From a virus, in the IMG/VR virus record IMGVR_UViG_3300020436_000059, positions 1 through 29,319 of that record: a stretch of 29,319 nucleotides of DNA. The stretch is one strand, 5' to 3'. Shown here piece by piece: positions 465 to 29,048 of the stretch. The position numbers and the translations under genes were made by a program. The notes beneath the pieces are model-generated. The model was not told the origin of the DNA. It ran no database searches and saw only the letters and a list, made by a program, of their open reading frames with translations. Within the stretch, counting starts at the first letter, position 1, and every line of letters begins with the position of its first letter.

Positions 465-1003
465 ATTTCACCACCACTAACCGAATAACGGGATCCGGAA
501 TATTTTTTTATAATATGTTCAACATCTTGAATACATAAATCAAAATCATTTATATTTTGTAAAATAATTTTTATTTCAAGTGGCTTTTCTTTCAAAGATT
601 CTGTTAATTCCTCTAGCTCTGGTTGTTCTGATAAAGATAATTCTTCTTCAGAAAAACCCCAATTTTTAAGCTCATTTATTTCAAAATTATTAGCTAATTC
701 ATCCCAGTCCCATTGCCCTTGATTTTTATTTAACCTAATATTTAATTCTTTTTCTTCGTTAATGTCTAAATTAATTAAAGCACAGTGAACTTTTTCTAAA
801 CCTAAATCTTTTGCTATTCTAGCCCTTTGATGCCCACCTATTAAAACATTTTTTCTTTTTACATTTGAATTTACAATCAAGGGATCAACTAAACCAAATC
901 TTGATATAGAATCTCTTAAATCTTTATATTGTTCTTTTGTTAATTCCCTAGGGTTATATTCAGCGAATATTAAATCGTCTATATTTATTTCAACAACTTT
1001 CAT
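461..1003 (-). CDS. ParB-like nuclease-domain (ParB/Srx N-terminal domain) protein
   Basis: 180 aa. N-terminus MKVVEINIDDLIFAEYNPRELTKEQYKDLRDSISRFGLVDPLIVN...VLIGGHQRARIAKDLG matches the ParBc pattern (NPR..., GxVxPIxV, xGGHxR). There is no obvious C-terminal HTH. The stop overlaps the start of the Mom-like gene (ATGA). Confidence 0.75.
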   Translation of the reverse strand: MKVVEINIDDLIFAEYNPRELTKEQYKDLRDSISRFGLVDPLIVNSNVKRKNVLIGGHQRARIAKDLGLEKVHCALINLDINEEKELNIRLNKNQGQWDWDELANNFEINELKNWGFSEEELSLSEQPELEELTESLKEKPLEIKIILQNINDFDLCIQDVEHIIKKYSGSRYSVSGGEI

Positions 1004-1054
1004 CTTATTGGAATAACCAATTGCCTTTTTGTATTACTTTTGGGCACTAATTAA

Positions 1055-1288
1055 CTAAATCCTTTTAAACCATTCTATTTCTTTTTGTTCAGGTGTAGTA
1101 TGTTCATTTAAACTTATTATATTAAATGGTTTGTCATAAACGTCATTTTTTTGTTCTGATGTATAATTTTCTAAATTTTCTGGAAATTTGCAATATATAT
1201 TATAAATTTTTTTTGCGGTAGTCCTGGAAACAAAAAAAGTGTCTTGTATTTCATTTACAGATAATGAGTTTATTTTTTTTGGATCCAT
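1055..1288 (-). CDS. Hypothetical small protein, possible HTH regulator; first gene of the long minus-strand arm
   Basis: 77-aa ORF starting at the divergent intergenic region. The segment SVNEIQDTFFVSRTTAKKIYNIY looks like a helix-turn-helix. Confidence 0.55.
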   Translation of the reverse strand: MDPKKINSLSVNEIQDTFFVSRTTAKKIYNIYCKFPENLENYTSEQKNDVYDKPFNIISLNEHTTPEQKEIEWFKRI

Positions 1289-1446
1289 TTAATAATATAC
1301 TACCTTTTACTATAATATATTATGTTGTGTTTTTTTAACCTATTTTTACCTTAACTATTTATATTTATAGAGATAGACCTATTTTTATTGTTGTATTTTT
1401 AGGCTAAAAAGCTTTTATTTAACATATAAATTTATTAAATTTCAAT
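1289..1446. promoter_or_regulatory. Divergent AT-rich control region between the minus-strand and plus-strand arms
   Basis: 158-nt non-coding gap between divergently oriented genes. It contains TATAAT at 1311..1316 and an 11-nt direct repeat ACCTATTTTTA at 1338..1348 and 1377..1387. Promoter assignment is not certain. Confidence 0.4.
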
Positions 1447-1482
1447 ATGGCACATAAAACTAAAATAACAAAAGGAGTTCAA

Positions 1483-1746: not shown

Positions 1747-2348
1747 TGGAAAATTACGGACACGTTTCAAATTCTTTCAATTTTAAAAGATTCGTTAAAA
1801 GGTCTTTCGAATACGAATATTTTAAAGGTGATAAAAAAGATTATCAAATATATAAATATATTAATATCGACGATAAAAAAGATATAGATAAAATAGATGA
1901 TAATTTTTATGTTCATTTATATGACATAAATGCTTCATATTTTCCTATATCTGGAATTTTTTGCTTAAATACTAAAGTATTTGATGGTGTTAACAAACCC
2001 ATAATGGATACTGCAAAAGTAGAAGCAGATATGGATGATAATTTTTATAAATCTTTAAGTAAAAATGATAGAGAAACATTAATAGGTACTGCAATCGAAG
2101 TATATCATTTAAATGTTTTTTTTAAAAAAACTACTTATTCCGAAAAAAACAGATTAAGACAAGAGTTAATATATCTTCTTAAAAGGTTAAAAGGGCAAGT
2201 AGAATACGATTGTTTTTATACAAGATTAGAACAATTATTAGAAAATAATGAAGGTCCTATTATATATAAAAAACAAAGGTTCACATTAAGGACTTTAGGT
2301 GGAGATTTTGGAGCAACAGGCTTTAAATTTTCACTTTTTAGTAAATAG
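1746..2348 (+). CDS. Hypothetical protein
   Basis: 200-aa ORF whose start overlaps the upstream stop (TAATG). No motif recognised. Confidence 0.7.
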   Translation: MENYGHVSNSFNFKRFVKRSFEYEYFKGDKKDYQIYKYINIDDKKDIDKIDDNFYVHLYDINASYFPISGIFCLNTKVFDGVNKPIMDTAKVEADMDDNFYKSLSKNDRETLIGTAIEVYHLNVFFKKTTYSEKNRLRQELIYLLKRLKGQVEYDCFYTRLEQLLENNEGPIIYKKQRFTLRTLGGDFGATGFKFSLFSK

Positions 2349-2356
2349 GATCCAAA

Positions 2357-2587: not shown

Positions 2588-2893
2588 ATGAATAATAAAG
2601 TACACATGGTCGGATCCATTGGTTATGAAATACAGAGTGAAATAACACCTGTTAAAATAAAGTATAAATATCTCGTAGATGGATATATTGAAATTGAAGC
2701 TGATTATATTTCAGATTCTGTTTCTATATATGATTATAATAATTTTTCTGATAAAGATAAACTTAAGTTTCGCCAAAATATGAAACTTAAAATAATCGAA
2801 GAAGTTAATTCATATCATTCTATATACGAAATGAAAATAGCTCATACACAAGAAGATGTTTTTAATAATAAAGGAGATATTGAAATAAAATGA
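2588..2893 (+). CDS. Hypothetical protein
   Basis: 101-aa ORF that starts immediately after the upstream stop. Confidence 0.65.
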   Translation: MNNKVHMVGSIGYEIQSEITPVKIKYKYLVDGYIEIEADYISDSVSIYDYNNFSDKDKLKFRQNMKLKIIEEVNSYHSIYEMKIAHTQEDVFNNKGDIEIK

Positions 2894-3325: not shown

Positions 3326-3623
3326 GTTTCAAGGAAAATGTAAAGGTGAAAAAGGTGAAGCAAGTAGGCTTGGACATAAAAGAATGTCCGTAGAAGCAAA
3401 TACTTGGAAACGAGGAATTTCAGTAAATATAACTAAAATCAATGATGATATGAATCATTTCGTAGTTTATTTAACTAATGGATCCGATGGGCAATATGAA
3501 CAAAGTTCAATAATTGCAGAATTTAATGCTTTTGACATTGATGGTTCAATTCAAGAATATAATCAAACTGAAAATATTAATTTAGCAATTCAAGAGAAAT
3601 GGAGAAAAAATGAACAAAAATGA
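3318..3623 (+). CDS. Hypothetical protein (ORF track start 3270)
   Basis: ATG at 3318 is preceded by AGGGAG. The longer 3270 start would overlap the upstream gene by 56 nt. Confidence 0.6.
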   Translation: MARFQGKCKGEKGEASRLGHKRMSVEANTWKRGISVNITKINDDMNHFVVYLTNGSDGQYEQSSIIAEFNAFDIDGSIQEYNQTENINLAIQEKWRKNEQK

Positions 3624-4168: not shown

Positions 4169-4676
4169 ACCAAGACTACAATTTAACGTAGATGAACCAC
4201 AAGATATCTTTGTAATAGAGAAAAAACCGGGGACTTTTGATGGACAATATGGTAAAAGCTATATTTTAAAAGTTCAGCATGATAATCAAGAGAAAGTTGT
4301 ATTTGGAGAACGTTTATGCTTAGAAATAGCATCTTACGAAATTGGATCCAAATTAAGGGTTTGTAAAGAACAAAAAAACAATGGGGCTACTGCTTTTAAG
4401 GTTGAAAACTTAGGTGGTGAAACATTAAGTGGAAATACAAAAAAAGAAGAATTTAATTCTTTAAAAGATTCATTTAATAATATGAAATCAGATTTCAAAC
4501 CTAAAAAAGAAGTTGATTGGGATGAAATAGGTAGGATTAAATGTAGATGTACTTTCGCTAATATTGCTTATGAGCAAGGTTTAGAACCTACCGAAGAAGT
4601 AATAAATAATATTAATGACTGGGTCGAATATGTTCAAACTGGAAAAAACCCAGATGAAATTGAATTACCAGAATAA
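4158..4676 (+). CDS. Hypothetical protein (possibly OB-fold/DNA-binding; not supported by a clear motif)
   Basis: 172-aa ORF overlapping both neighbours. Confidence 0.65.
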   Translation: MTNKPRLQFNVDEPQDIFVIEKKPGTFDGQYGKSYILKVQHDNQEKVVFGERLCLEIASYEIGSKLRVCKEQKNNGATAFKVENLGGETLSGNTKKEEFNSLKDSFNNMKSDFKPKKEVDWDEIGRIKCRCTFANIAYEQGLEPTEEVINNINDWVEYVQTGKNPDEIELPE

Positions 4677-6680: not shown

Positions 6681-7685
6681 TTAGAATTCTTCGGAAATAC
6701 CTAAAGAAGTAGAAAATACATTACTTGCGACTTGACTTAAAGATAAAGTGTCTTGGTCAAATCTAGCAAACAAGTAATCTCCGTTTGTGGTTGAACTTCC
6801 ATCTGGGGTGAATATAAAAGGAATATGAGAACCACCTGTGCGATTCCAAACATCATTTAAAAAAGTTGAATCTGTGCTTTGTGTGCTAATATCTGAATTA
6901 ACTAAGTTTTCATCAGAAATAAAACTAAAGTTCATTTGAAAAGATGAACGACCTCCGAAACGTAAACTACCTGATGTGCCTTTAGTTCTAAATGGTTGTC
7001 CTGTTTGAGTTGATGAAGATAAATTACCTTCTAAAAACCTCGCTTGGCTAAATCTTTTACCTGCTGGAGTTTCCATGATATCATTACCAAAAGAAATATT
7101 CCTTGTTACATTTAAATCTGGTGATATAGGCATGTCAAACTTTTTTCCAATCATAATGGATCCGATTTTAACATCATTAGAACTACTAAATGCAGAACTT
7201 ACACCTTGTATTTGTATAGCAACATATCTGTTTGTTACAGAACTTAATTCTATAATCGAATCACCATCTGATGTAGGTGTAAAAATATCAGAACTTTCAG
7301 TAGCATTTAGTATAGGTGCTGCACTATGATTCGCAGGGTCAGCAGATGTAATATCTGAAGAACTGCTATGAATAAAAAATTGAGCGTTAGCACTATTTAA
7401 GTTGTGGTTTAGTATAGCAACAAAATCAGTAGCTATATTTGTAGCTTGTTTATCGATAACAAATAATAAATGGTCTGCCCTTGTACCAGAAGAATCCGAA
7501 GTGCTAAAAACAACTTGTCTGCTTGGATTCATATCAAACAGCTCTGCATCTACAAAACTTGCATCGTGGTCAATTAAATTGGATCCAGTTGCCATAGCAA
7601 ACTGGTCTGGTGATACACCTCTTGAAATTAACCAATTTATATGGTCAACGTAAAATCTTGGTGTTTGTATTCTTGAATAAGTCAT
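6681..7685 (-). CDS. Distal tail/receptor-binding-like structural protein (last gene of the tail operon)
   Basis: 334-aa ORF, Ser/Thr/Asn-rich, with a TAATG overlap with the upstream 740-aa tail gene. The call rests on position only. Confidence 0.7.
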   Translation of the reverse strand: MTYSRIQTPRFYVDHINWLISRGVSPDQFAMATGSNLIDHDASFVDAELFDMNPSRQVVFSTSDSSGTRADHLLFVIDKQATNIATDFVAILNHNLNSANAQFFIHSSSSDITSADPANHSAAPILNATESSDIFTPTSDGDSIIELSSVTNRYVAIQIQGVSSAFSSSNDVKIGSIMIGKKFDMPISPDLNVTRNISFGNDIMETPAGKRFSQARFLEGNLSSSTQTGQPFRTKGTSGSLRFGGRSSFQMNFSFISDENLVNSDISTQSTDSTFLNDVWNRTGGSHIPFIFTPDGSSTTNGDYLFARFDQDTLSLSQVASNVFSTSLGISEEF

Positions 7686-12126: not shown

Positions 12127-12136
12127 TCCGGATCCT

Positions 12137-19041: not shown

Positions 19042-19043
19042 AT

Positions 19044-19271: not shown

Positions 19272-19272
19272 T

Positions 19273-22200
19273 TTAGTCTCCTATTGCTAGAGGTTGAAAA
19301 GTTGCAGAGCAATCGTATGTGCCACCAGTCGCTGCTCTTAATGACATTCCAGAAACACTTATTGTAAAATCATTACTTTCTATTGTATTTATTAAAGCGA
19401 TACCTGAATTATCTACTCCGAAAATTCCTACAAACCTAGTAGAGTAGCTACCGCCTCGTCTAACAATATTGAATAAGTAAATTCCATCACCTGTGCTATT
19501 AGCTGGAGCTACATCAGAAACATCAAAAACCTCAGTTGCACTTGTACCTACTGAAACATTAGTATGTAATGCACCAAAATTCATGCCTTGTCCAAGAGTT
19601 ACGCTGTCATCTTGGTCAATTAATAACCTTTCGGATCCACCAGTTTCAAATGCTATGGCAGTGCTATTTAGTGCAGAAAATCTATTTTTATTTCCACCAC
19701 CACCACTATACTCTGCAGATGTTATTGCAAATACAGATGCTGGGTGAGATGAATCCGTAAAAGTAATATGTTGAACTGCATCTGCACCAGAAAATGTAAC
19801 TGGTTGAAATGTTGTTGTCGTGGTTCCATCAATTACTAATTTTTCTGCATTGTTAGCATCAAAGTGAATTTCATTTGCAGTTTCAAAATCAATTTTAGTT
19901 TCAGCATCCTCACCTATTACTATATCAGTTGCAAGCAATGATGTAATTCCTGTCTGTGAAGCATTTATTGAAAAATCAAGATTATCATTTGATGTGTCAT
20001 AAGTTACTGTTATGCCACTTTCAGTATTACTTGAAACCATATTCGTGCCAACCGTATCTCTTACAAATGTTCCTAATGCAACACCATCTATTGTAACAGC
20101 ATCAGCTTCAAGTGTACCATCCACATCAACATCACCACTAATGTCTAAACTGCTAGCTTCAATTTCTCCAGATGTTTTGAATATTACATTATCTCCACCA
20201 TCTACTTCAAAGATGATTTGATTATCTGTACCGAACTTAATTCTGTTGTCAGCATCCCTTCCAATTTCTAAACTGCTATTAACAAGAGATGTAATGCTTG
20301 TCATTGAAGCATCAATTTCCAAATCAATGGTATTGTCTGCATCTTGATAAGTTGCTGTAATTCCAGTTTCAGTATTAGAGCTGAACATAGCTCCAGTTGT
20401 ATCAGAAATAGTTTCTGCTAAAGTAACACCACCAATTGTTATAGCATCTGCCTCAAGTGTTCCGTTGATATGTGCATCTTTAAATTGTAAGCTATCACTA
20501 CCTAAATCAACATCATTGTCTGTTACTGGTAATAATGCTCCATCTTGTAATTTAATTTGGTCTGCTCCTGATGCTCTAAAAATAATATTATTGTCAGTAG
20601 CAAAATCAATATCGTTATCTGCATCTCTACCAACAACTAAACTTGTATTTGTTATTGAAGTAATTCCAGTTTGCGAAGCACTTAATGAAAAGTCTAATGT
20701 GCCATCACCATCTTCGTATGTTACTGCTATTCCAGATTCAGTATTTGAAGAAACCATAGCACCAGCTGTGTCCTGAACAAATTCTGTTATAGAATCTGAA
20801 CCTCCTATTGTAACTCCTGTTGCTATATCACCAGAATCAATATTTACATTAGTCATTGCATTGGATCCAAAATCAGAAGTAGAATCAATATCTAATGCCT
20901 TGTGGAATTGTATTTTTTCGGATGAATTACTTGTATCAATTGTAATATAAGAGTTTGAACTTTCTTTAATACTAAAAGCACTTGCCTGATTGTCATCCAT
21001 AGCAATATTAAAAGTAGAACCATCAGATGATATACTATCAGCACTAATATCGCCAATATTTGTAATGTCATTGTCATTAAATGATGTACCTCCTAAACTG
21101 ATTGTGCCAGTTGCAGTAAGGTTTGATGAGCCAATATCAATAGCTCCGAATCCACTAGAAATTGCACCAGTTCCTAAAGTTCCGACAGATGTAATATTGG
21201 TTTGTGATGCAGTTTGTATAGTTCCTTCTAAATCTGCTTTAATTGTTCCTACACTACCTGATACTACTTCCGAAGAAATACTAGCATCTGGAACAAACAT
21301 TAACTTTCCATCTGAATCATCAAATCCTAAAAATGCAGTTTTAGCAGATGAGCCATTATGATAAAACATGGCTAAACCAACATCTTTATTTGTATCTGAG
21401 CCAAGGTTAGCACCATCATCAGCAGTCTGTAATGATATAATAGGGTCGTTAATAGTCATTGTTGAAACATTTTGAGTAACAGTAGAACCATTTACTTTCA
21501 AATCACCTGTAATAGTTAAATTGTCATTAATAGTTGTTTCACTTGTGCTATGTCCTATACTAATTGAGGTGCCACTAATACCTGTACCTATTGATACAGA
21601 TTCTGAACTATTTGCAGTATCGATAATTAAGTAAGCATCTGAACCTTGTTTAATTGTAAACGAAGTTGCACTATTGTCAGAAACGGCAATATTAATATCT
21701 GTTCCGTCTGCTGAAATACTATCAAGCGCTATATCTCCAACATTAGTGATATTATTATCACCAAAAGATGTAGCCCCAAGGGTTACGGATCCAGTAGTGC
21801 TCAATGCTCCTGAACCTATATCTATACTTGAAAATCCAGATGTAATTGAACCACTATTTAAAGCACCAACTGTTGTTGCAGCAGTTGTTACAAGATTAGG
21901 CATTGCGGTTATTTCATCATCAAAATATGCACTTAGGTCTGTAACTGCAACTTGTTTCATTGTACCGCTATCGTTTAAAACAACCCTATCTGCATCTGCT
22001 ATTGTTGTTGAACTAGCAGAAGTATCTCCGTCTAAAATATTTATTTCTGTTGCAGTTGCATTAATAGATGCTAATTTTGTAAAATCTGCTTGTACTAACC
22101 CAGAAACTCCATCTAATAAATTAAGTTCTGAAGCTGTTGCAGTAACTCCATCTAATATATTTAATTCAGATGTAGTTGCAGTTACGCCATCTAAAATATT

Positions 22201-23061
22201 AAGTTCTGATGCAGTACTTGTTACATTAGTTCCTCCGATATCAAGTGTAGTAACACTAATTTCTCCAGCAATAGTTGCAATACCATCTGCTAGTGTAATT
22301 AGGTCCGTATCGCTTGTATGTCCAATAGTTGACCCATTTATATTTATATTATCAATAACTGCTTGAGTAACTGCACTATTTGTTCCAAGAGTAACCCCAT
22401 CTATCGAACCGCCATCTATATCAGGACTATTAATGTCGGGGCTTGTCAAAGTTTTATTTGTTAATGTATCTGAAGTTGCTAATCCTACTAAAGTATCAGT
22501 TGCATTAGGTAGTGTTATTGTTCTGTCGCCATCTGGGTCGCCTGGTGATAATGTTATTTCGTGAGCATCACTTGTTGAACCCTCAAAGACTAAACTGCCA
22601 GTAATAGTACCGCCAAAAGCAATTGTATCACTTGAAGCATCACCTAAAGTGATAGTACCACCATTGAAAGTTGTCGTTCCTGTCACCGTTAAGTTTCCAC
22701 CGACAGAAGCATTTCCAGTTATTGTTAAATTATCTGCTATTGTAGTTTCTGATGTGGTATGTCCGATTGTAACGGCTATTCCAGATGTTTCAGTTGCAAT
22801 CTTTAATATACCAGTTGAATTAGTAATGAAAGAATTGGATCCATCATGATATATTTGTAAATCACTTCCAGTTCCTAATTTAATAGTTTTGCTGTCTATT
22901 AATTCAATTCCATTAGTTGATATTTTTAAAGCTGAAGCAGTTCCGTCTCCATCTGTTATTGAAACTGCTGTACTACTAATGCCTGAAGTTTCTCCAGTAT
23001 GTAATAATTGAGAATATGTATCTGATATTCTACTATTTGATAAATCTGCTAAAGCTGACAT
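19273..23061 (-). CDS. Large repeat-rich fibre/structural protein (tail-fibre-like)
   Basis: 1262 aa, rich in Thr/Ser/Gly/Asp/Ile. It has several internal repeat families, including tandem (T)(A/T)SELNILDGVTA units characteristic of phage fibre proteins. Confidence 0.85.
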   Translation of the reverse strand: MSALADLSNSRISDTYSQLLHTGETSGISSTAVSITDGDGTASALKISTNGIELIDSKTIKLGTGSDLQIYHDGSNSFITNSTGILKIATETSGIAVTIGHTTSETTIADNLTITGNASVGGNLTVTGTTTFNGGTITLGDASSDTIAFGGTITGSLVFEGSTSDAHEITLSPGDPDGDRTITLPNATDTLVGLATSDTLTNKTLTSPDINSPDIDGGSIDGVTLGTNSAVTQAVIDNININGSTIGHTSDTDLITLADGIATIAGEISVTTLDIGGTNVTSTASELNILDGVTATTSELNILDGVTATASELNLLDGVSGLVQADFTKLASINATATEINILDGDTSASSTTIADADRVVLNDSGTMKQVAVTDLSAYFDDEITAMPNLVTTAATTVGALNSGSITSGFSSIDIGSGALSTTGSVTLGATSFGDNNITNVGDIALDSISADGTDINIAVSDNSATSFTIKQGSDAYLIIDTANSSESVSIGTGISGTSISIGHSTSETTINDNLTITGDLKVNGSTVTQNVSTMTINDPIISLQTADDGANLGSDTNKDVGLAMFYHNGSSAKTAFLGFDDSDGKLMFVPDASISSEVVSGSVGTIKADLEGTIQTASQTNITSVGTLGTGAISSGFGAIDIGSSNLTATGTISLGGTSFNDNDITNIGDISADSISSDGSTFNIAMDDNQASAFSIKESSNSYITIDTSNSSEKIQFHKALDIDSTSDFGSNAMTNVNIDSGDIATGVTIGGSDSITEFVQDTAGAMVSSNTESGIAVTYEDGDGTLDFSLSASQTGITSITNTSLVVGRDADNDIDFATDNNIIFRASGADQIKLQDGALLPVTDNDVDLGSDSLQFKDAHINGTLEADAITIGGVTLAETISDTTGAMFSSNTETGITATYQDADNTIDLEIDASMTSITSLVNSSLEIGRDADNRIKFGTDNQIIFEVDGGDNVIFKTSGEIEASSLDISGDVDVDGTLEADAVTIDGVALGTFVRDTVGTNMVSSNTESGITVTYDTSNDNLDFSINASQTGITSLLATDIVIGEDAETKIDFETANEIHFDANNAEKLVIDGTTTTTFQPVTFSGADAVQHITFTDSSHPASVFAITSAEYSGGGGNKNRFSALNSTAIAFETGGSERLLIDQDDSVTLGQGMNFGALHTNVSVGTSATEVFDVSDVAPANSTGDGIYLFNIVRRGGSYSTRFVGIFGVDNSGIALINTIESNDFTISVSGMSLRAATGGTYDCSATFQPLAIGD
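19822..20793 (-). repeat. Three ~110-aa divergent coding repeats within the fibre gene
   Basis: aa ~757-1080. The module D(T)xGAMxSSNTE(S/T)GI(A/T)(V/A)TY(E/Q/D)D...LDF(S/E)(L/I)xASQTGITS(I/L)...(V/E)(V/I)G(R/E)DA(D/E)N.I.F.T.N.IIF occurs three times. Approximate coordinates. Confidence 0.65.
20902..21870 (-). repeat. Two ~95-aa divergent coding repeats within the fibre gene
   Basis: aa ~398-495 and ~626-720: G(A/T)(L/I)(N/S)SG..S(S/G)(I/A)IDIGS..L..TG(S/T)(V/I)(T/S)LG(A/G)TSF.DN(N/D)ITN(V/I)GDI..DSIS.DG...NIA..DN.A..F.IK..S..Y..IDT.NSSE. Approximate coordinates. Confidence 0.65.
22012..22215 (-). repeat. In-frame tandem coding repeats (13-aa ELNxLDG units, 3 good copies plus 1 degenerate)
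   Basis: aa ~283-350 of the fibre: TASELNILDGVTAT / TSELNILDGVTAT / ASELNLLDGVSG ... ATEINILDGDTSAS. Coordinates were derived from residue numbering by hand and may be off by a few nt. Confidence 0.7.
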
Positions 23062-23070: not shown

Positions 23071-23271
23071 CTAATAATCTGTATTATCGAAACTGCCCTT
23101 TTTATATTCTTCTTCATAAAAATCTTTACCGAATCGAGTTGATGTTTTACTAATAATTCTTCTTAAATCCTTGCTATTGCACTCTTTACATTTCGGATCC
23201 ATGTGTACTAATCCATGCCAATGTTCTATTATTTTTTTACACTTGTTGCATTGATATTCATATAAAGGCAT
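23071..23271 (-). CDS. FmdB-family-like zinc-ribbon protein
   Basis: The MPLYEYQCNKCKK...CKECNS pattern (MPxYEYxCxxC ... CxxC) is typical of FmdB/CxxC_CxxC_SSSS zinc ribbons. 66 aa. Confidence 0.65.
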   Translation of the reverse strand: MPLYEYQCNKCKKIIEHWHGLVHMDPKCKECNSKDLRRIISKTSTRFGKDFYEEEYKKGSFDNTDY

Positions 23272-23536: not shown

Positions 23537-24403
23537 TTAAGGATTGTTAAAGTTAACAACAGGTAGTGCTGTTGAACTTGCGCTATGAGATAAGCAAGCA
23601 CCAAAGAGACTATCAACTACAATGGATGTAGCAAGATAATCGATATCGTACTGCTCCTGAACTCTAGGGCGTAATTGCGAAGCGTAATAGACACCAGAAG
23701 TTTTGAAAATACTTCCAGATTCGTCTCCAGTACCTCCGTCATCATCCCAATCCACGCTGGCATACACAGGCATGCCGTAAACATTTCCTAACTCACCAGA
23801 AACATTTGGATTTGTAGCATCACCTCTAATAGTTGCAGAATTAAAATCTGACAAACCTAATATTGATGAATACATAGCTGGAGAAGCATAGAAAAATGTT
23901 TGTCCATCTGTGTATGAATGACCACCATCAAGAAGCTTTTGAAGTCCGCTTCTAATTAATGCTGTTGTTGCTGTATTATCAGCGGCCAATGTTACGTCGT
24001 TTCCAGTAGCACTTTGAAGTACGTCAACTGCAATATAGTTCTCTATTTTCTTTGCAATGGAATAGCCCATTGATTGAGCATACATTCCAAACAAATCAGA
24101 ATTTTCTTGAACTCTTACTAAGTCGCCTATTCTTTTTGCTTCATAAACGTGTTGGTTGATTGATAGCTCAACTTCGCCATCTGTGTTTGCACCATAAGAT
24201 ACTGCTGATCCACTGCTCAAAGTCGCAGCAGTTTCTTCAGTAACTTTTGGGATGTTTAACTTATTGCCACCCTCTGCAACCATGCTTGAAAGGTCAGTAA
24301 CTTGATTAACAAGTCTAAATTCTCTTTCTGCATAGTCAAGAACGGCATCTGACCACATTTCAGGAATAAAATTCGCTGCCGTGGTTAGTGTTACTTCTGC
24401 CAT
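23537..24403 (-). CDS. Major capsid protein (HK97-fold type, by position and N-terminal motif)
   Basis: 288 aa, preceded by a scaffold-like gene and followed by a strong terminator. The N-terminal ...FIPEMWSDAVLDYAE... resembles the IPE(I/V/M)WS motif of a common capsid family. Confidence 0.8.
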   Translation of the reverse strand: MAEVTLTTAANFIPEMWSDAVLDYAEREFRLVNQVTDLSSMVAEGGNKLNIPKVTEETAATLSSGSAVSYGANTDGEVELSINQHVYEAKRIGDLVRVQENSDLFGMYAQSMGYSIAKKIENYIAVDVLQSATGNDVTLAADNTATTALIRSGLQKLLDGGHSYTDGQTFFYASPAMYSSILGLSDFNSATIRGDATNPNVSGELGNVYGMPVYASVDWDDDGGTGDESGSIFKTSGVYYASQLRPRVQEQYDIDYLATSIVVDSLFGACLSHSASSTALPVVNFNNP

Positions 24404-25365: not shown

Positions 25366-26084
25366 TAGTCTAATACCGCCACCCAATCATGCCTACAATT
25401 ATAACCACCTCTACCAGAAAATGATAATTTAAGTCCACCTATTTCTGGATAAGATAAAATTTCTGCAACAGTAAAACCCTTTTCATTTTGACTATTTGAC
25501 ATTACATGCTTACATAGTGGTCGGATCCTAGGATTTTCTTTTGATGCTCCAACATATTTGAATCGTTGGTCTGGGTTTTCTTCAAAAGCTTTTTTAGTTG
25601 CTGTATTACTAAACCTTGCAAATGAATCTCCGACTATAGTATTTAATTGTGGGCTTGTTAATTCACCTACAACTGTTGTGGATAATCTGTTAACAATATT
25701 ATCTCTTGTATCGCCATCAATAATTCCTCTTAATAATTCACTTTTTACTTTTGTTGAAATTTCTTGACCTATTCTAAAAATAGCTTGGGCATCTAAATCT
25801 TTTATTAATTGTAATTGTGAAGCAGAAGCGACTTTAGTGTCTAAACCTCTTATGTTAGCTTCTCTAAAAACATTTTCAGCTACTCCGTCATAATCTTGCA
25901 TTAATTTTTCAACACTATCATTGTAACCTAATTTATTTAATTGTTCAAAGAAATCAATTTCCCTAGCAATAACTGCTAATTCTGTATCAGAGAAACCTTT
26001 TAATCTATCAATAAGCTTTGGTAGAATGTTTATGAGTTTATTCTCAATATTTGACAATTCATTTAAAAAATCATTAACTGCCAT
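25365..26084 (-). CDS. Minor head/head-morphogenesis protein (SPP1 gp7 / Mu F-like)
   Basis: 239 aa directly after the portal. The C-terminal RPLCKHV...GGYNCRHDW resembles the conserved Cys/His C-terminal motif of the gp7/F family. Confidence 0.65.
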   Translation of the reverse strand: MAVNDFLNELSNIENKLINILPKLIDRLKGFSDTELAVIAREIDFFEQLNKLGYNDSVEKLMQDYDGVAENVFREANIRGLDTKVASASQLQLIKDLDAQAIFRIGQEISTKVKSELLRGIIDGDTRDNIVNRLSTTVVGELTSPQLNTIVGDSFARFSNTATKKAFEENPDQRFKYVGASKENPRIRPLCKHVMSNSQNEKGFTVAEILSYPEIGGLKLSFSGRGGYNCRHDWVAVLD

Positions 26085-27402
26085 TAATTAACCTTTCAAC
26101 TAATGTTTCATTTGTAGGTTTTGGATCCAATTTTTTCGGTTGACTTTCTTGTTCAATTCTTTCCATAGTTTCGTTAATTTCTTCTTCTGTAAAATCTGGA
26201 TTGTAATGTCTTAGCCAATCTTTTGTAGTTGCCAATCCATTATCCCATTTCCACATCCACTCTTCACGTTCTTGTTGTGGTGATAAAGGAATATGTGGCT
26301 CACTAAAATCAACTGAGTATTCATCACTTACGTTAATATTATAAGTTTCTAAAATCCTTTGGTCTAATTCAAATCTTTCTTTTTCAAATTTTCTAAATCG
26401 TTCAAAGTCAGACATAACTGCTTCTGTTAAATCAACTTCTAAAATTCTTTGATGCTCTCCAGATGTAGCATTTGAATCACTACCCCATTTCTTTTTTAAA
26501 TGTAAAGCTGATGCTGTTGTTTCGTAAACCCACTTTTGGTTTTCTCTTATTTCTGAAAGCGAACCAGATGGACTTACAATTGAATAATTCGCTCCCTCTG
26601 GTAATACAAGCATTTTGCTAACATCCATTTTTAGCCTTGTACTTTCATCAACACCTGTTAAAACGGATTGCCCTAAAGTCTGATACATATTTCCAAGTGA
26701 TAGTTGTGTTCCAAATACATTATATAAACAATTGGCATTTGCAACCATTTTACCCTTGCCAGTTCTAAACCATTCGTTTCCAATCATAGGATATAGATGA
26801 GAAAATAAAACTGGGATTACACCATATGGATTTACATCATCTTCGTTTACACTTATAAACTGACCACCTTTTGTCATTTTAAAATGCATATCTTTTGACC
26901 AAAAAACAAATTGTTGTTCTTCTGATTTCATATTTCCGTGATTATATAAAGGGTAAACAACAGCTACTGGATCCGAATTATTCATTTCATATATAGGTTC
27001 AAAGTCAGTAATAATATGTGAATCTAAAATTTCTTTTTCTTCGTTATAATATCTTAACATTCCTATTGTTCCTAATAAACCTGTAAGCCTGTCAACTTGA
27101 ATCATGTCCTGGTCTAAGTCTCCTAATAGTTCTAAATATTTCTCATCAGCATTTCTCTGTGGTGCAGATTTATAAGCTATGTATCTTGAATCAATTAACT
27201 CTTGTGTAATATTAGCTTCAAAAGGAACTGCAAATCTTAAAGCATTAGAATCAAAATATTCCATTACATATTTATCTAAGTTTATTCCTTCATAATAATC
27301 CATAATCATTAAACGTTCTTTATTTTCACTATAATGTGAATCATCAACATAATCTTTAATACTACTAATAATTGTTTGTTTGCTTAAATCTTGTATTATC
27401 AT
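26074..27402 (-). CDS. Portal protein
   Basis: 442-aa ORF immediately downstream of terL with an acidic C-terminus. Size and position are typical. Confidence 0.75.
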   Translation of the reverse strand: MIIQDLSKQTIISSIKDYVDDSHYSENKERLMIMDYYEGINLDKYVMEYFDSNALRFAVPFEANITQELIDSRYIAYKSAPQRNADEKYLELLGDLDQDMIQVDRLTGLLGTIGMLRYYNEEKEILDSHIITDFEPIYEMNNSDPVAVVYPLYNHGNMKSEEQQFVFWSKDMHFKMTKGGQFISVNEDDVNPYGVIPVLFSHLYPMIGNEWFRTGKGKMVANANCLYNVFGTQLSLGNMYQTLGQSVLTGVDESTRLKMDVSKMLVLPEGANYSIVSPSGSLSEIRENQKWVYETTASALHLKKKWGSDSNATSGEHQRILEVDLTEAVMSDFERFRKFEKERFELDQRILETYNINVSDEYSVDFSEPHIPLSPQQEREEWMWKWDNGLATTKDWLRHYNPDFTEEEINETMERIEQESQPKKLDPKPTNETLVERLINGS

Positions 27403-27403
27403 T

Positions 27404-28708
27404 CTACCATCTTTCAGTCTGTGTTACTTCCCGATTTTTTATAGGAAATTTATTTATAAAAAAATATCTGATAGCATCCATGCTATGGTCATGTAAACCA
27501 TCTTTTAATGGTTCTTCCTTTAAAGCACTATCAGCTTTGTCGTTAGGATACCTATAATTTTCAAAATCAGATATTACACCTTTACATTTATCTGATACAA
27601 AAAGTTTAACTTCGCTTGTAGCACTTTTTAAAAAACTTCTAACTAAGTCCACACCAGATGGAATAGATTTACTTATTTTATCTCTTTTGTATTTTGCAAA
27701 TATTCCATGTCTTTTAAATATTTCTGCATCGCCTAATCCACTTGTTGATTGCACTCCTACTCCTGCAGGGTCGCAATAGTAAGATAAAACAGGGTATTTT
27801 TTTTCTAATATTCTCATAGCTAAATCTTCGGTTTTAATATTTTTTTCATGTACTATTTCATCAAATATATGGACAATTGTTTCACCATTTACTTTTCCAC
27901 ATTGAAAAAAGACAACTGCTGGCATGCGATAGCCAAAGTCAATCGAGCAATATGTATCCCATTCTGGAATATATTCGATATTAGAAACATGGGTAGTCCG
28001 TTCAAATGGATACACTTTACCAGCAAAAGTTGTAAATTCTCCAAGATATTCTTGTTGAAATGTTTCAAGCGTTAAATCCCTTTTTAAGTCCTCAATATTG
28101 TCTTTAAAAAATCTTGACTGTGTAGATGGGTGTTGCCAACTTTCCCAGTCTGGAAACTCATTAGACAATCCTCTTTTATATAATTCATATAACCAGTTAT
28201 ATCCTCTAGGAGTAGATGTAAATAAAGCCCAACCATTCCTATCCGATAAAGTAGGTCGCAAATATTGTTCCCATATAATTTTTTGTAATAATGCTGCTTC
28301 ATCTACTATTAACCAGTCTAATCCTTCTCCTACAAGTCCAGCATCTGGAGTTGTTGCTGATTTAATCCACAATTCGGATCCATTAATAAATTTTGCATAA
28401 AATAAATTACCATTAATTACTCTTTTATTTATGGTAGGAAATTTAATCTTTAATATAAGATTTTCATGAATTTCCCTACCAATTTTTGTAGCTAAGTCAT
28501 AACTAGGAGCAACAACCCAGCCTTTAGTATTTTCTTGTAATATTGCTGTTTCTGCTTCTCTTGCTGCGCTATAACTTTTACCACTTCTTCTACCTTGTAT
28601 ATTTACTCTAAACCTAGCATCGGAATTGTGCAAGTCCCATTGTATTTTATCTGGCACATATTCAATCTCTTTGAAATAATTAGCTTTCTGTTGGGCTGTA
28701 AATCGCAT
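27404..28708 (-). CDS. terL: Terminase large subunit
   Basis: 434 aa. Walker A-like QGRRSGKS near the N-terminus, Walker B-like LDWLIVDEAA, and a C-terminal nuclease-type acidic motif (HDHSMDAIRY). Confidence 0.85.
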   Translation of the reverse strand: MRFTAQQKANYFKEIEYVPDKIQWDLHNSDARFRVNIQGRRSGKSYSAAREAETAILQENTKGWVVAPSYDLATKIGREIHENLILKIKFPTINKRVINGNLFYAKFINGSELWIKSATTPDAGLVGEGLDWLIVDEAALLQKIIWEQYLRPTLSDRNGWALFTSTPRGYNWLYELYKRGLSNEFPDWESWQHPSTQSRFFKDNIEDLKRDLTLETFQQEYLGEFTTFAGKVYPFERTTHVSNIEYIPEWDTYCSIDFGYRMPAVVFFQCGKVNGETIVHIFDEIVHEKNIKTEDLAMRILEKKYPVLSYYCDPAGVGVQSTSGLGDAEIFKRHGIFAKYKRDKISKSIPSGVDLVRSFLKSATSEVKLFVSDKCKGVISDFENYRYPNDKADSALKEEPLKDGLHDHSMDAIRYFFINKFPIKNREVTQTERW

Positions 28709-29048
28709 GAATTACATCTTCCCATTTCTCGCCAACTTGTGCTATTACTTCTGTTGCTTTTCCTTCTAATCTGTTAGCAACAAAATCTATTGCCCACGGC
28801 TTTCCTTGTATCGCATACATAATAGTCGTTCTTAGTATGCCTTCAAGTAAGTTCATATCAGTTAAGTCAATTTCTGGATAAACCTTTTTAATTCTTTTTT
28901 GTAGTTCTTTAGGCACAGGTTCATTTGTTATTTTCCTTAATAAGTCTGGTATGGATCCGGCTCCCTTAGGCCTTCCTTTTGGATTCCCACTTACACCTTG
29001 TTTAAAAGTGCCATCATTATTCCTGTTATTACCTGTTTTATCAGGCAT
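28680..29048 (-). CDS. terS: Terminase small subunit-like protein (DUF5681-type; ORF track start 29114)
   Basis: MPDKTGNNRNNDGTFKQGVSGNPKGRPKGAGSIPD carries the GxSGNPxGRPKG motif common in small-terminase-like proteins. ATG at 29048 overlaps the Mom-like stop by 8 nt. The longer 29114 start would run through the tRNA-like element. Confidence 0.65.
   Translation of the reverse strand: MPDKTGNNRNNDGTFKQGVSGNPKGRPKGAGSIPDLLRKITNEPVPKELQKRIKKVYPEIDLTDMNLLEGILRTTIMYAIQGKPWAIDFVANRLEGKATEVIAQVGEKWEDVIHAIYSPTES

What the first reader, a model, noticed from the sequence alone, without database searches (positions are those of the whole stretch)
491..28958. About 12-fold over-representation of GGATCC at quasi-regular ~1 kb spacing, with no GATC outside (G)GATC(C)
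A complete manual scan, including block and line boundaries, finds GGATCC 30 times. First bases are at 491, 1281, 2348, 2612, 3480, 4344, 5164, 6239, 7158, 7581, 7778, 9141, 9773, 12130, 12560, 14154, 14907, 16085, 16556, 18134, 19633, 20863, 21787, 22837, 23195, 25523, 26123, 26969, 28376 and 28953.

- Enrichment: for a roughly 30-33% G+C genome of 29.2 kb, a zero-order expectation is only about 2-3 sites.
- GATC depletion: I find 36 GATC in total, against roughly 80-90 expected. The six that are not GGATCC are all one-mismatch variants: GGATCA at 882 and 19189, AGATCC at 11036, and TGATCC at 17330, 18691 and 24206. No GATC lacks both outer bases.
- Not a protein motif: sites fall in all three codon phases, with 19 as GGA-TCC (Gly-Ser), 6 as G-GAT-CC (Asp-Pro) and 3 as GG-ATC-C (Ile), in genes on both strands. 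Two more lie in tiny spacers: 2348 spans a stop codon/RBS and 12130 sits in a 10-nt intergenic gap.
- Not a dispersed repeat: the flanks share nothing beyond Y at -1 (28/30) and R at +1 (28/30). That bias may partly reflect RNY codon periodicity.
- Not simply codon choice: most other Gly-Ser dipeptides, including about a dozen in the fibre gene, are not encoded as GGATCC.
- Spacing is more even than random: mean ~975 bp, range 197-2357, hand-computed CV ~0.5 versus ~1 for a Poisson process.

Short restriction-type palindromes are normally avoided in phage genomes, so positive selection for an evenly distributed one is very unusual. Hypotheses (inference only):
- recognition sites of the phage ParB-like/Mom-like modification module;
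- a distributed binding array for a ParB-family protein (compare the KorB operators on RK2) or for the basic virion proteins;
- programmed nick sites, as in T5-like phages.
Basis: partly seen in the sequence, partly recalled or inferred. Interest (0 to 1): 0.92.

Follow-up and report, generated by a model that had tools for sequence, protein, structure and literature searches.

The report
Evenly spaced GGATCC array in phage
A small uncultured marine phage has removed every GATC from its DNA except 36 copies, nearly all as the 8-base palindrome YGGATCCR, spaced about one per kilobase and still being added where gaps remain; this resembles the unexplained "highly iterated palindromes" of cyanobacteria and shows selection acting on the spacing itself.

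Summary
The window is a circular 29,242-bp phage genome. It has 30 GGATCC sites, against 1.2-3.1 expected under Markov nulls and 5.5±1.5 under synonymous-codon shuffles. The selected word is the 8-mer YGGATCCR (flank test p=6e-11). All other GATC is purged: 6 remain against about 69 expected.

Those six are half-sites lying in the middle of the largest gaps (P=3e-4). All 36 GATCs together form a regular array: CV 0.43, maximum gap 1594 bp, and 0 of 50,000 random placements as regular.

A 97%-identical sister phage from another sample has the same array. Differences between the two show stepwise, mostly synonymous gap-filling (outgroup GGTTCA, then GGATCA, then GGATCC). Many sites cost amino-acid replacements.

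None of about 200 more distant relatives shares the array.

The closest known analogue is the cyanobacterial HIP1 / GGGATCCC class. My best reading (confidence about 0.35) is a self-spacing set of recognition sites for a type-II-like, probably host-supplied, methyltransferase or nicking activity, serving a DNA transaction that reaches about 1 kb. The mechanism is unproven.

The parts
491..496 (.). GGATCC site (cgGGATCCgg), Gly-Ser in the ParB_N gene; the one site with G at -1
   Evidence: conserved in sister L212
882..887 (.). half-site GGATCA, midway between sites 491 and 1281
   Evidence: conserved in the sister
1281..1286 (.). YGGATCCR site overlapping the start codon of the 77-aa gene (ATGGATCC, Met-Asp-Pro)
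   Evidence: sister has GGACTT (Met-Asp-Leu), so this site is window-only
2348..2353 (.). GGATCC site spanning a stop codon and the spacer (taGGATCCaa)
   Evidence: sister has only the half-site TGATCC here
2612..2617 (.). YGGATCCR site, Gly-Ser
3480..3485 (.). YGGATCCR site, Gly-Ser
   Evidence: conserved in the sister
4344..4349 (.). YGGATCCR site, Gly-Ser
   Evidence: conserved in the 94%-identical contig L210
5164..5169 (.). YGGATCCR site, Ser-Asp-Pro in the 243-aa early protein
   Evidence: conserved in L210 and L211
6239..6244 (.). YGGATCCR site, Gly-Ser in the NinG-like gene; relatives encode Thr-Gln, Gly-Glu or Gly-Gln here
7158..7163 (.). YGGATCCR site, Gly-Ser; relatives encode Gly-Gln
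7581..7586 (.). YGGATCCR site, Gly-Ser; relatives encode Gly-Asn or Thr-Ser
7778..7783 (.). YGGATCCR site, Gly-Ser; relatives have GGAAGT (synonymous)
9141..9146 (.). YGGATCCR site, Ser-Asp-Pro
9773..9778 (.). YGGATCCR site, Gly-Ser
   Evidence: conserved in the sister
11036..11041 (.). half-site AGATCC near the centre of the largest gap (9773-12130), in the tape-measure gene
   Evidence: sister has AAATCC
12130..12135 (.). GGATCC site in a 10-nt intergenic spacer (ccGGATCCtt)
   Evidence: conserved in the sister
12560..12565 (.). YGGATCCR site, Gly-Ser
   Evidence: conserved
14154..14159 (.). YGGATCCR site, Gly-Ser; relatives encode Asn-Ser
   Evidence: conserved in the sister
14907..14912 (.). 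YGGATCCR site, Arg-Ile-Gln; the relative encodes Arg-Trp-Gln
   Evidence: conserved in the sister
16085..16090 (.). YGGATCCR site, Gly-Ser; relatives have GGGTCT, GGATCA or GGTTCA (synonymous)
16556..16561 (.). YGGATCCR site in the endolysin gene, Trp-Ile-Gln; relatives encode Trp-Lys-Pro, Trp-Ile-Pro or Trp-Leu-Asp
17330..17335 (.). half-site TGATCC at the centre of the 16556-18134 gap
   Evidence: conserved in the sister
18134..18139 (.). YGGATCCR site, Gly-Ser; relatives encode Ala-Ser
18691..18696 (.). half-site TGATCC in the 18134-19633 gap
   Evidence: sister has TAATTC
19189..19194 (.). half-site GGATCA in the 18134-19633 gap, inside the segment that is replaced in the sister
19633..19638 (.). 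YGGATCCR site, Gly-Ser in the 1262-aa fibre-like gene; relatives encode Gly-Ala
20863..20868 (.). YGGATCCR site, Gly-Ser; the relative has GGTTCT
21787..21792 (.). YGGATCCR site, Gly-Ser
22837..22842 (.). YGGATCCR site, Gly-Ser. It is window-only. The sister and five outgroups keep GGTTCA, so this is a gain by two synonymous changes
23195..23200 (.). YGGATCCR site, Met-Asp-Pro; relatives have Thr/Tyr-Asp-Pro with TGATCC
24206..24211 (.). half-site in the major capsid gene (GGATCA on the gene strand) at the centre of the second-largest gap. The sister has a full GGATCC and outgroups have GGTTCA; all encode Gly-Ser
25523..25528 (.). GGATCC site (tcGGATCCta), Arg-Ile-Arg; relatives encode Lys-Thr-Arg
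26123..26128 (.). YGGATCCR site, Leu-Asp-Pro in the portal-like gene
26969..26974 (.). YGGATCCR site in the portal-like gene, Ser-Asp-Pro; most of ten relatives keep Pro-Asp-Pro (CCTGATCC), three have Pro-Glu-Pro
28376..28381 (.). YGGATCCR site in the large terminase gene, Gly-Ser; relatives have GGAAGC, or encode Asn-Ser or Lys-Ser
28953..28958 (.). YGGATCCR site in the DUF5681 (small-terminase-like) gene, Gly-Ser; relatives encode Gln-Ser or Val-Ala
461..1003 (-). Context only, not shown to act on the array: ParB_N protein (180 aa) with a conserved non-HTH C-terminal domain
1..464 (-). Context only: 3' part of the Mom-family gene (221 aa). The 5' part lies at 29041-29242 of the circle, and window 29243-29319 repeats 1-77

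Best explanation
The 30 YGGATCCR sites and 6 half-sites form a phage-borne 'highly iterated palindrome' array.

Shown:
- The signal acts on DNA, not on protein or RNA.
- The selected word is a strict 8-bp degenerate palindrome.
- Every GATC outside the array has been eliminated.
- The sites repel each other at short range and leave no base more than about 0.8-1.2 kb from a site.
- New sites are being built stepwise exactly where gaps are largest, through synonymous and also amino-acid-changing substitutions, independently in two sister lineages.

Inferred:
- A word of this format (6-bp palindrome plus Y/R outer positions) is read by a homodimeric enzyme of the type II methyltransferase/endonuclease class.
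- The window phage encodes no recognisable methyltransferase or nuclease, and the array does not follow any phage gene I could test.
- Each methylated or recognised site serves as a landmark for a DNA transaction that reaches only about 1 kb along the duplex. Strand or self discrimination for nick-directed mismatch repair or recombination is the model case.
- Such a range limit yields a minimal covering set by selection or by a self-limiting repair ratchet. GATC outside the favoured context is costly and is removed.
For: - Enrichment and uniqueness among hexamers.
- 8-bp motif, p=6e-11.
- GATC purge restricted to GATC-containing words.
- Regular spacing against two nulls.
- Half-sites lie mid-gap (P=3e-4). 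All 36 GATCs give CV 0.43 and a maximum gap of 1594 bp (P=2e-5).
- A sister phage at 97.3% identity has the same array, CV 0.44, P=2e-4.
- Stepwise synonymous series in the capsid gene, GGTTCA to GGATCA to GGATCC, together with synonymous loss of the outgroup's two GATCs.
- The same gap is filled at different positions in the two lineages (window 22837 full site; sister half-site at window position 22405).
- Sites were created by amino-acid replacements at positions where relatives agree with each other.
- The array is independent of ParB-Mom and of the sister's C5-methyltransferase.
- HIP literature: GGGATCCC and other HIPs occur at 1000-2000 per Mb, cognate methyltransferases co-occur, and a methyl-directed repair ratchet has been proposed that saturates at about 1 site per 1000 nt (PMC4390886). 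HIP1 is under selection (PMC5861425).
- GATC content controls a phage's access to host methyl-directed mismatch repair (PMC5014478).
Against: - No methyltransferase or nicking enzyme for GGATCC has been identified in either phage or host, and the host is unknown.
- I could not test whether the host genome or unrelated phages of the same host carry the array.
- A repair-type benefit to a 29-kb phage should be small, yet sites were bought with amino-acid changes.
- Classical Dam/MutH reads only GATC, so it does not by itself explain the 8-bp specificity.
- HIP function itself is unresolved, so the analogy transfers little mechanism.
- Site sharing between the sisters (18 of 22) is about what neutral divergence of 2.7% would give, so purifying conservation is not demonstrated; only directional gain is.
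Confidence: 0.35

Rival explanations
1. The sites are entry or loading sites for the phage's own ParB_N-Mom modification cassette, which lies next to the terminase genes. The complex would start at YGGATCCR and act over about 1 kb, so that evenly spaced sites give whole-genome modification.
For: - ParB_N-Mom is a tightly conserved module placed directly upstream of TerS/TerL. This matches the predicted 'ParB-terminase locus' modification systems (PMC4738411).
- Canonical ParB proteins load at palindromes and spread.
- Mom-encoding phages are enriched for total GATC avoidance: 15 of 49 loci against 11 of 138.
Against: - None of the other Mom loci of at least 9 kb has any over-represented 6- or 8-bp palindrome.
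- The closest Mom homologues (57-62% identity) sit in genomes with zero GATC and no array.
- The ParB-like protein lacks the HTH recognition helix and the GERR motif.
- Mu Mom targets SAS, not GAT (PMC13219725).
- In one related clade, relatives with Mom and relatives with a ParB-methyltransferase fusion share the same k-mer signature, so composition follows clade rather than module.
Confidence: 0.13
2. The sites are a binding array for another phage-encoded dimeric DNA-binding protein, such as the small HTH proteins at 3110-3325 or 6393-6554, or an unknown early protein. Its role would be genome organisation, counter-silencing, replication or packaging. Stray GATCs would be removed to avoid off-target binding.
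For: - The array is confined to one tight phage lineage, with no intermediate relatives between 98% and 71% TerL identity.
- Many early genes are lineage-specific and of unknown function.
- A palindrome fits a homodimer.
- Half-sites behaving as weaker members fit graded affinity.
Against: - No candidate was identified: no PDB, Pfam, NCBIfam or PADLOC matches, and the single-sequence structure model was unusable.
- Transcription-factor-type sites are usually longer and fuzzier than a strict 6+2 palindrome.
- Off-target avoidance would not be expected to erase all of the roughly 69 other GATCs while leaving variants such as GAATCC and GCATCC at expectation.
- There is no helical phasing between sites.
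Confidence: 0.15
3. The functional unit is GATC itself, in a Dam+/MutH+ (gammaproteobacterial-type) host. The phage uses the host replisome and keeps the minimum evenly spaced set of GATCs needed for methyl-directed mismatch repair. It places them in a G/C-clamped context that is methylated efficiently, and deletes all poorly methylated GATCs because MutH cleaves unmethylated sites.
For: - All 36 GATCs, not only the 30 full sites, form the regular array, and no base lies more than 797 bp from a GATC. That matches the roughly 1-kb reach of MutH-directed repair quoted in PMC4390886.
- Adding GATC sites to phiX174 lowers its mutation rate 8-fold, limited by under-methylation (PMC5014478).
- No polymerase, primase or helicase domain was detected in the genome.
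- From my own knowledge, not checked here: GATC counter-selection in enterobacteriophages has been attributed to MutH (Deschavanne and Radman 1991).
Against: - The selected word is 8 bp with very strong flank specificity, far more than known Dam or MutH flank effects.
- Residual GATCs in other GATC-poor relatives show no GGATCC preference.
- The host is unknown, and the 31% G+C content is unusual for phages of Dam/MutH-bearing taxa.
Confidence: 0.12
4. The sites are Chi-like recombination/anti-nuclease signals or uptake-type 'self' signals recognised by host RecBCD/AddAB or DNA-uptake machinery. A palindrome would work in both orientations on a circularly permuted genome.
For: - The phage has no recognisable recombinase or nuclease inhibitor, only a NinG/Rap-like protein.
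- Methylated HIP1 boosts transformation and recombination in a way described as Chi-like (bioRxiv 10.1101/2024.09.10.611283; 10.64898/2026.06.24.733823).
- A density of about 1 per kb resembles USS/DUS (own knowledge).
Against: - Known Chi and uptake sequences are asymmetric and are read on single strands.
- Neither explains the total purge of other GATCs or the short-range repulsion between sites.
- Host motif statistics are unavailable.
Confidence: 0.08
5. The sites are programmed single-strand interruptions (T5- or tf-like nicks) made at GGATCC by a phage or host nickase.
For: Regular spacing and a strict short motif are compatible with this. The NinG-like protein gives a weak hit to a type IV restriction-enzyme model.
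Against: - A palindrome would be nicked on both strands, giving a BamHI-like double-strand break.
- No nickase was identified.
- Known nick consensus sequences are asymmetric (own knowledge).
- The idea cannot be tested from sequence.
Confidence: 0.04
6. The pattern is an artefact or a trivial cause: assembly or adaptor contamination, codon or dipeptide usage, or chance.
For: Nineteen of the 30 sites encode Gly-Ser.
Against: - Codon shuffles give 5.5±1.5 against 30 observed.
- Only 19 of 63 Gly-Ser dipeptides are used, and those are evenly spaced.
- The sites preserve reading frames.
- Independent assemblies from different samples and runs agree, and strains at 91-98% identity show the same signature with site turnover.
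Confidence: 0.01

Closest known systems
Cyanobacterial highly iterated palindromes: HIP1 GCGATCGC and alternates, including GGGATCCC in Synechococcus JA-3-3Ab / JA-2-3B'a (PMC4390886, PMC5861425)
   Same: - A short GC-rich palindrome with a GATC core.
- 15- to 300-fold over-representation.
- A density of about 1000-2000 per Mb; here it is 1026 per Mb.
- Found in all codon phases and between genes, with no peptide or RNA role.
- Evidence for selection.
- A proposed link to methyltransferases and to a process that reaches about 1 kb.
- GGGATCCC even contains GGATCC.
   Different: - This array is in a 29-kb, 31% G+C marine phage, not a cyanobacterial chromosome.
- The flanks are Y/R, not G/C.
- Nearest-neighbour spacing is regular at about 1 kb, whereas HIP1 periodicity was reported at 10-90 kb.
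- All non-array GATCs are purged.
- No cognate methyltransferase has been identified.
- Site turnover can be read directly between sister genomes.
GATC and GGATCC over-representation in subcluster B3 mycobacteriophages (PMC4841201)
   Same: A genome-wide, lineage-specific and unexplained excess of GGATCC in a phage clade. Phaedrus also has a ParB-like gene upstream of its terminase.
   Different: - In Phaedrus the excess is only about 3-fold by the order-1 expectation (82 observed against 26 by order 1, or 48 by order 3).
- GATC as a whole is enriched (605 against 345), not purged.
- Spacing is only mildly regular (CV 0.79, P=0.016).
- There is no Y/R flank rule.
GATC avoidance in phages, attributed to restriction or MutH (for example phiX174, T7; PMC5014478)
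   Same: Near-total removal of GATC from a phage genome. The same bimodal avoidance, with exact zeros, is seen in many relatives of this phage.
   Different: Here avoidance coexists with a deliberately retained, regularly spaced set of GATCs in one fixed 8-bp context. In the other avoiders any residual GATCs have no preferred context.
ParB-parS / KorB operator arrays and Noc binding sites
   Same: Palindromic sites dispersed over a replicon and read by a ParB-family protein. A ParB_N protein is encoded here.
   Different: - This ParB_N protein has no HTH and an altered CTP-motif region.
- parS, OB and NBS sites are 13-16 bp long and far fewer per kb.
- Fifty-one other ParB_N-Mom phages have no such array.
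ParB-terminase-locus DNA-modification cassettes (Iyer/Aravind prediction, PMC4738411) and Mu Mom (PMC13219725)
   Same: The gene order ParB_N, modification enzyme, TerS, TerL. Relatives carry a ParB_N-N6/N4-methyltransferase fusion, Mom and/or a small C5-methyltransferase at this position.
   Different: This is a property of the gene neighbourhood, not of the GGATCC array. Presence or type of the cassette does not predict the array.

Membership tests
Highly iterated palindrome (HIP) class | A short palindrome over-represented at least about 15-fold across the genome | tested here: met
   30 observed against 1.2-3.1 expected (Markov orders 0-3). It is the top hexamer, and z=16 against codon shuffles.
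Highly iterated palindrome (HIP) class | A density of roughly 1000-2000 sites per Mb | tested here: met
   30 sites in 29,242 bp is 1026 per Mb; counting half-sites, 36 gives 1231 per Mb.
Highly iterated palindrome (HIP) class | Acts at the DNA level: occurs in all reading phases, on both strands and in spacers, and is not explained by codon usage | tested here: met
   Phases are 19/7/3 plus one intergenic site, in proportion to opportunity. Flanks are specific.
Highly iterated palindrome (HIP) class | Maintained by selection (sites conserved or replenished beyond neutral expectation) | tested here: inconclusive
   Eighteen of 22 comparable sites are shared with the sister at 2.7% divergence, which is about the neutral expectation. 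Directional multi-step gains in gaps and amino-acid-changing site creation argue for selection or drive.
Highly iterated palindrome (HIP) class | A methyltransferase specific for the palindrome is present in the same genome | tested here: not met
   No methyltransferase is encoded in the window phage. The sister's C5-methyltransferase also sits, at 81-84% identity, in relatives with no GGATCC array. A host-encoded enzyme cannot be tested because the host is unknown.
ParB-parS type centromere or operator array | A ParB protein with an HTH DNA-binding domain and the GERRxRA CTP-binding motif | tested here: not met
   Only the ParB_N domain aligns to Spo0J/Noc. The motif is GGHQRAR. The C-terminal domain is a conserved non-HTH module.
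ParB-parS type centromere or operator array | Presence of the sites co-varies with presence of the ParB protein | tested here: not met
   Fifty-one ParB_N-Mom loci and several ParB_N-methyltransferase loci have no enriched palindrome.
Chi / uptake-signal sequences | An asymmetric motif, strand-oriented, and over-represented in the host chromosome | tested here: not met
   The motif is a perfect palindrome. Enrichment in the host cannot be tested because the host is unknown.
T5/tf-like programmed nick sites | Site-specific single-strand interruptions in virion DNA made by a dedicated nickase | not testable with these tools
   This requires virion DNA. No nickase gene was recognised.
Mom (momylation) target sites | An adenine in the enzyme's recognition context (SAS for Mu Mom) | tested here: not met
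   The A of GGATCC is in GAT context on both strands. This holds for Mu specificity only (PMC13219725); the specificity of this Mom clade is unknown.

The most novel reading that the evidence does not exclude
A virus carries its own HIP-type array that is kept as a minimal covering set. Selection acts on the distance to the nearest site, not on individual sites, because a methylation- or nick-directed host process reaching about 1 kb decides the fate of phage DNA (repair, recombination or destruction). The phage has evolved to present exactly one optimal landmark per reach-length and no stray GATC. This would be the first case where the function-defining property of iterated palindromes, their range, is read directly from site turnover between sister genomes.
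Probability: 0.3. Interest if true: 0.85.

Novelty: new variant of a known kind. Interest (0 to 1): 0.76.

Why it matters
Highly iterated palindromes have been unexplained for about 30 years. They have been studied only in multi-megabase cyanobacterial chromosomes, where selection, mutational drive and function are hard to separate.

This case offers three advantages:
- The whole array is 36 sites on a 29-kb genome.
- Sister genomes catch sites in the act of being built in the gaps.
- The background is completely free of GATC.

That turns "why are such palindromes iterated?" into measurable questions. What reads YGGATCCR? Is it methylated? What happens to burst size, mutation rate and recombination when spacing is changed?

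It also shows that a restriction-type palindrome can be strongly favoured, not avoided, in a phage. That matters for host prediction from k-mers and for interpreting motif statistics in viromes.

Tried and rejected
- **Other enriched hexamers in relatives** (CCTGAT, GCGCAG, CTGAAG, CAGTTG, AGATCT, CTGCAG). I first thought these were half-palindromes or analogous arrays. They are not regularly spaced (CV about 1 or clustered). Several are codon or repeat effects, so they are not the same phenomenon.
- **Second outlier in the window.** CGCAGC/GCTGCG is Ala-Ala coding in the tape-measure gene.
- **Link between GATC content and the ParB-linked enzyme type** (methyltransferase or Mom). No clean relation was found.
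- **Whether the GGATCC context is generally 'safe' in GATC-poor relatives.** It is not.
- **Modest GGATCC excesses in L173, L016 and L137.** These lack the flank rule and the GATC purge.
Rejected, because near-identical copies occur in array-free relatives and the window phage lacks it.
- **Candidate readers among the early proteins.** There were no PDB sequence hits. NCBIfam and PADLOC gave nothing convincing. The AF2 single-sequence model of the 200-aa protein was unusable, with pLDDT 33. The 243-aa protein models as a winged-helix protein with only weak, non-significant similarity to Rep initiators.
- **Host identification.** INPHARED has no nucleotide match, and its best protein matches are only about 26-32% identical. 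The GTDB scan returned only phage-like contigs binned into unrelated MAGs.
- **Helical phasing of the gaps.** None.
- **Relatives at intermediate divergence to date the origin of the array.** None exist in the protein database; TerL identity drops from 98% to 71%.

Full report
**1. What the window is**

The first and last 77 nt of the window are identical, and contigs from three other assemblies bridge the junction. The sequence is therefore a circular or terminally redundant phage genome of 29,242 bp.

It encodes:
- a large terminase, a portal-like protein, a major capsid protein, a tape measure, a 1262-aa fibre-like protein and an endolysin;
- a block of small early genes;
- immediately upstream of the small-terminase-like DUF5681 gene, a ParB_N protein and a Mom-family protein whose gene spans the window junction.

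There is no nucleotide match in INPHARED, and the best protein matches to cultured phages are only about 26-32% identical. All related contigs are marine (Tara, JGI marine metagenomes).

**2. The observation**

- GGATCC is the most over-represented hexamer of the genome: 30 observed against 2.0, 1.9, 3.1 and 1.2 expected for Markov orders 0-3.
- Shuffling synonymous codons within genes keeps the GGA, TCC, GAT and ATC codons that the sites themselves contribute. It still gives only 5.5±1.5 (maximum 13 in 2000). In a scan of all hexamers GGATCC stands alone at z=16.
- Total GATC is 36 against 70±6 in shuffles. Fourteen of the 16 NGATCN classes are empty. One-mismatch variants that destroy the GATC core (GAATCC, GCATCC, GTATCC, GGTTCC) are at expectation. 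So two signals are superimposed: avoidance of GATC and enrichment of one GATC-containing word.

**3. The motif is 8 bp**

Symmetrised flanks show Y at -1 in 56 of 60 half-sites and T at -2 in 34 of 60.

There are 107 positions where GGATCC could be written without changing any protein. Of the 29 that are occupied, 26 have Y(-1) and R(+1). Of the 78 unoccupied, only 16 do (Fisher p=6e-11).

The selected word is YGGATCCR. This degenerate-palindrome format is typical of type II methyltransferase and endonuclease specificities (own knowledge).

**4. Spacing**

On the circle the 30 gaps have mean 975 bp and CV 0.536. Under uniform placement CV is 0.95±0.16 (P=5e-5). Drawing 29 of the 107 synonymous-opportunity positions never reached the observed regularity in 50,000 trials. 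Both the smallest gap (197 bp, P=0.002) and the largest (2357 bp, P=0.005) are unusual.

Unused opportunities lie mostly close to an existing site: median 260 bp, and 77% within 400 bp.

New result: the six residual half-sites (GGATCA x2, AGATCC, TGATCC x3) are not random leftovers.
- They lie on average 712 bp from the nearest full site, against 314 bp for random positions (P=3e-4). That places them in the middle of the biggest gaps.
- With them included, all 36 GATCs of the genome give CV 0.433 (0 of 50,000) and a largest gap of 1594 bp (P=2e-5).
- No base is then more than 797 bp from a GATC.

There is no helical phasing.

**5. Evolution of the array**

At positions orthologous to the sites, more distant relatives often agree with each other on a different amino acid. 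Examples are Pro-Asp-Pro in most of ten portal homologues against Ser-Asp-Pro here; Thr/Tyr-Asp-Pro against Met-Asp-Pro; and Gly-Gln, Gly-Asn, Asn-Ser, Ala-Ser, Gly-Ala or Gln-Ser against Gly-Ser. Sites were therefore created at the cost of protein changes.

Protein searches then revealed a sister lineage. One is a 29,184-bp contig from another Tara sample (L212, 97.3% nucleotide identity over 21.8 kb). There are also shorter contigs from other runs at 91-94% identity.

The sister has 21 GGATCC in 23.6 kb (1.4 expected). Its only other GATCs are four half-sites, and its CV is 0.44 (P=2e-4). This rules out artefact.

Site mapping between the two genomes gives:
- 18 shared sites;
- three window-only sites;
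- one sister-only site in aligned sequence;
- different sites in a non-homologous replacement of the fibre gene's 3' end;
- an extra site at about window position 4733 in L210 and L211.

The differences are directional.
- In the capsid gene (94% amino-acid identity to array-free relatives), a conserved Ser-Gly-Ser-Ala reads GGTTCA in three outgroups, GGATCA in the window (the half-site at the centre of the second-largest gap) and GGATCC in the sister. The outgroups' other GATCs have been removed synonymously.
- At 22837 the window has GGATCC, where the sister and five outgroups keep GGTTCA. The sister has instead acquired GGATCG 430 bp away, in the same gap.

The array is thus being completed independently in both lineages, exactly where coverage is poorest.

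**6. What it is not linked to**

None of about 150 contigs related through TerL or the capsid protein shares the enrichment. The closest (71% TerL, 94% capsid identity) have zero GGATCC and ordinary GATC.

Other enriched hexamers in relatives are not regularly spaced.

In relatives the ParB_N domain is fused to an N6/N4 methyltransferase at the same position. In this phage it stands alone, followed by Mom. Fetching 53 viral contigs through Mom showed ParB_N abutting Mom in 51 of them, in otherwise unrelated phages. This is a conserved cassette, with a conserved non-HTH C-terminal domain on the ParB_N protein. It corresponds to the ParB-terminase-locus modification systems predicted by Iyer and Aravind (PMC4738411).

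These Mom phages are enriched for total GATC avoidance (15 of 49 against 11 of 138; not phylogenetically independent). None of the loci of at least 9 kb has any over-represented palindrome.

Three further points weaken the ParB/Mom idea:
- The ParB-like protein aligns to Spo0J/Noc only over the N-terminal domain, carries GGHQRAR instead of GERRxRA, and lacks the HTH.
- Mu Mom is a Gly-tRNA-dependent GNAT that modifies A in SAS context (PMC13219725). The A of GGATCC is in GAT context.
- The sister phage carries an extra 214-aa C5-cytosine methyltransferase between Mom and TerS (phrog_757, E=4e-29). Copies 81-84% identical sit at the same place in array-free relatives, and the window phage lacks it.

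No other candidate reader was found among the phage proteins. The host could not be identified.

**7. Interpretation**

The data require a factor that reads a strict 8-bp palindrome on duplex DNA. They also require a benefit that saturates once a site lies within about 0.8-1.2 kb, and a cost for GATC elsewhere.

The closest described phenomenon is the cyanobacterial HIP class. It includes HIP1 (GCGATCGC) and alternates such as GGGATCCC, at 1000-2000 per Mb. These are linked to orphan methyltransferases and are under selection. For them Elhai proposed a methyl-directed mismatch-repair ratchet that saturates at about one site per 1000 nt, because a methylated landmark directs repair only over about 1 kb (PMC4390886, PMC5861425). 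Recent preprints report methylation-dependent, Chi-like stimulation of transformation by HIP1.

Experiments with phiX174 show that GATC content controls a phage's access to host methyl-directed repair (PMC5014478). This is relevant because the present phage has no recognisable replication enzymes.

My preferred reading (confidence about 0.35) is a host-read, methylation-type landmark array kept as a minimal covering set.

Rivals, with my confidence in each:
- a phage-encoded binding protein (0.15);
- ParB_N-Mom entry sites (0.13);
- a pure Dam/MutH GATC set (0.12);
- Chi- or uptake-like signals (0.08);
- programmed nicks (0.04).

All are detailed with their refuting tests. Artefact or codon bias is excluded.

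A weaker precedent in phages is the unexplained excess of GATC and GGATCC in B3 mycobacteriophages (PMC4841201). In Phaedrus I find about a 3-fold excess by the order-1 expectation (82 against 26, or 48 by order 3), no GATC purge and only mild regularity.

**8. Verdict**

This is a real, statistically overwhelming and evolutionarily active feature.
- It is best filed as a new variant of the HIP kind, in a virus, with two properties not described for HIPs: nearest-neighbour regularity at the 1-kb scale, and complete removal of the core tetranucleotide elsewhere.
- The mechanism remains inferred.

Noticed in passing
window 1-77 and 29243-29319: The two window ends are identical over 77 nt, so the sequence is a circular or terminally redundant genome of 29,242 bp. 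The Mom gene spans the junction.
   Followed up: yes
window 461-1003 (-) and 29041-464 (-); loci L156-L208: ParB_N plus Mom is a conserved two-gene cassette directly upstream of the terminase genes in 51 of 53 Mom-encoding viral contigs from otherwise unrelated phages. The ParB_N partner has a conserved non-HTH C-terminal domain (..KPPTIKITF..AE.EI..KY..YSVSxGE) of unknown role.
   Followed up: partly
L212 3149-3793 (sister phage); also L004 1310-1993, L005 7425-8108, L012 1612-2253: A small (214-227 aa) C5-cytosine DNA methyltransferase (phrog_757; motifs LFAGS and ASPPCTYFS) is inserted cleanly between Mom or the ParB-methyltransferase fusion and the small terminase gene. It is present in the sister phage and in array-free relatives but absent from the window phage. 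Its specificity is unknown.
   Followed up: partly
loci L004-L208: GATC observed/expected across about 190 related marine phage contigs is bimodal. Many contigs have exactly zero GATC (for example 0 of 60, 0 of 41 and 0 of 35 expected), and the rest are at 0.3 or above. A few show 1.5- to 2-fold excess, for example L011 (112 against 66) and L084 (46 against 23, with AGATCT at 16 against 3). Total avoidance is more frequent among Mom-encoding contigs.
   Followed up: partly
window 19004-19849 vs L212 12928-13964: The 3' end of the 1262-aa fibre-like gene and the start of the next gene are replaced by non-homologous sequence between the two sister phages. This is probably a host-range module swap. 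Each version carries its own GGATCC sites or half-sites.
   Followed up: partly
window 9907-11418 (-): CGCAGC/GCTGCG is the second most over-represented hexamer against codon shuffles (14 against 2.6). It reflects Ala-Ala (GCT GCG) runs in the tape-measure gene and is not a DNA signal.
   Followed up: yes
window 4676-5407 (+): The 243-aa early protein models (pLDDT 75) as an N-terminal winged helix, a helical domain with a conserved FDHYEANGW..GK..IKNWK motif, and a C-terminal Cys-rich ribbon. Fold similarity to plasmid Rep initiator N-domains is weak and not significant. It may be the replication organiser.
   Followed up: partly
L209 (Mycobacterium phage Phaedrus, 1-50000): This B3 mycobacteriophage is known for an unexplained GATC/GGATCC excess. 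It also starts with a ParB-like nuclease gene and a PAPS-reductase-like gene upstream of its terminase. GGATCC is 82 against 26 (order 1) or 48 (order 3), with CV 0.79.
   Followed up: partly
protein P0184: A TerL homologue at 54% identity lies on a 499-kb contig. It is probably a prophage relative of this phage family and could reveal a host lineage.
   Followed up: no
window, all 30 sites: The flank combinations are T..A 9, C..A 10 and T..G 8, but C..G 0 (about 3 expected). The doubly CpG-containing form CGGATCCG is never used. Genome CpG observed/expected is 0.57.
   Followed up: no
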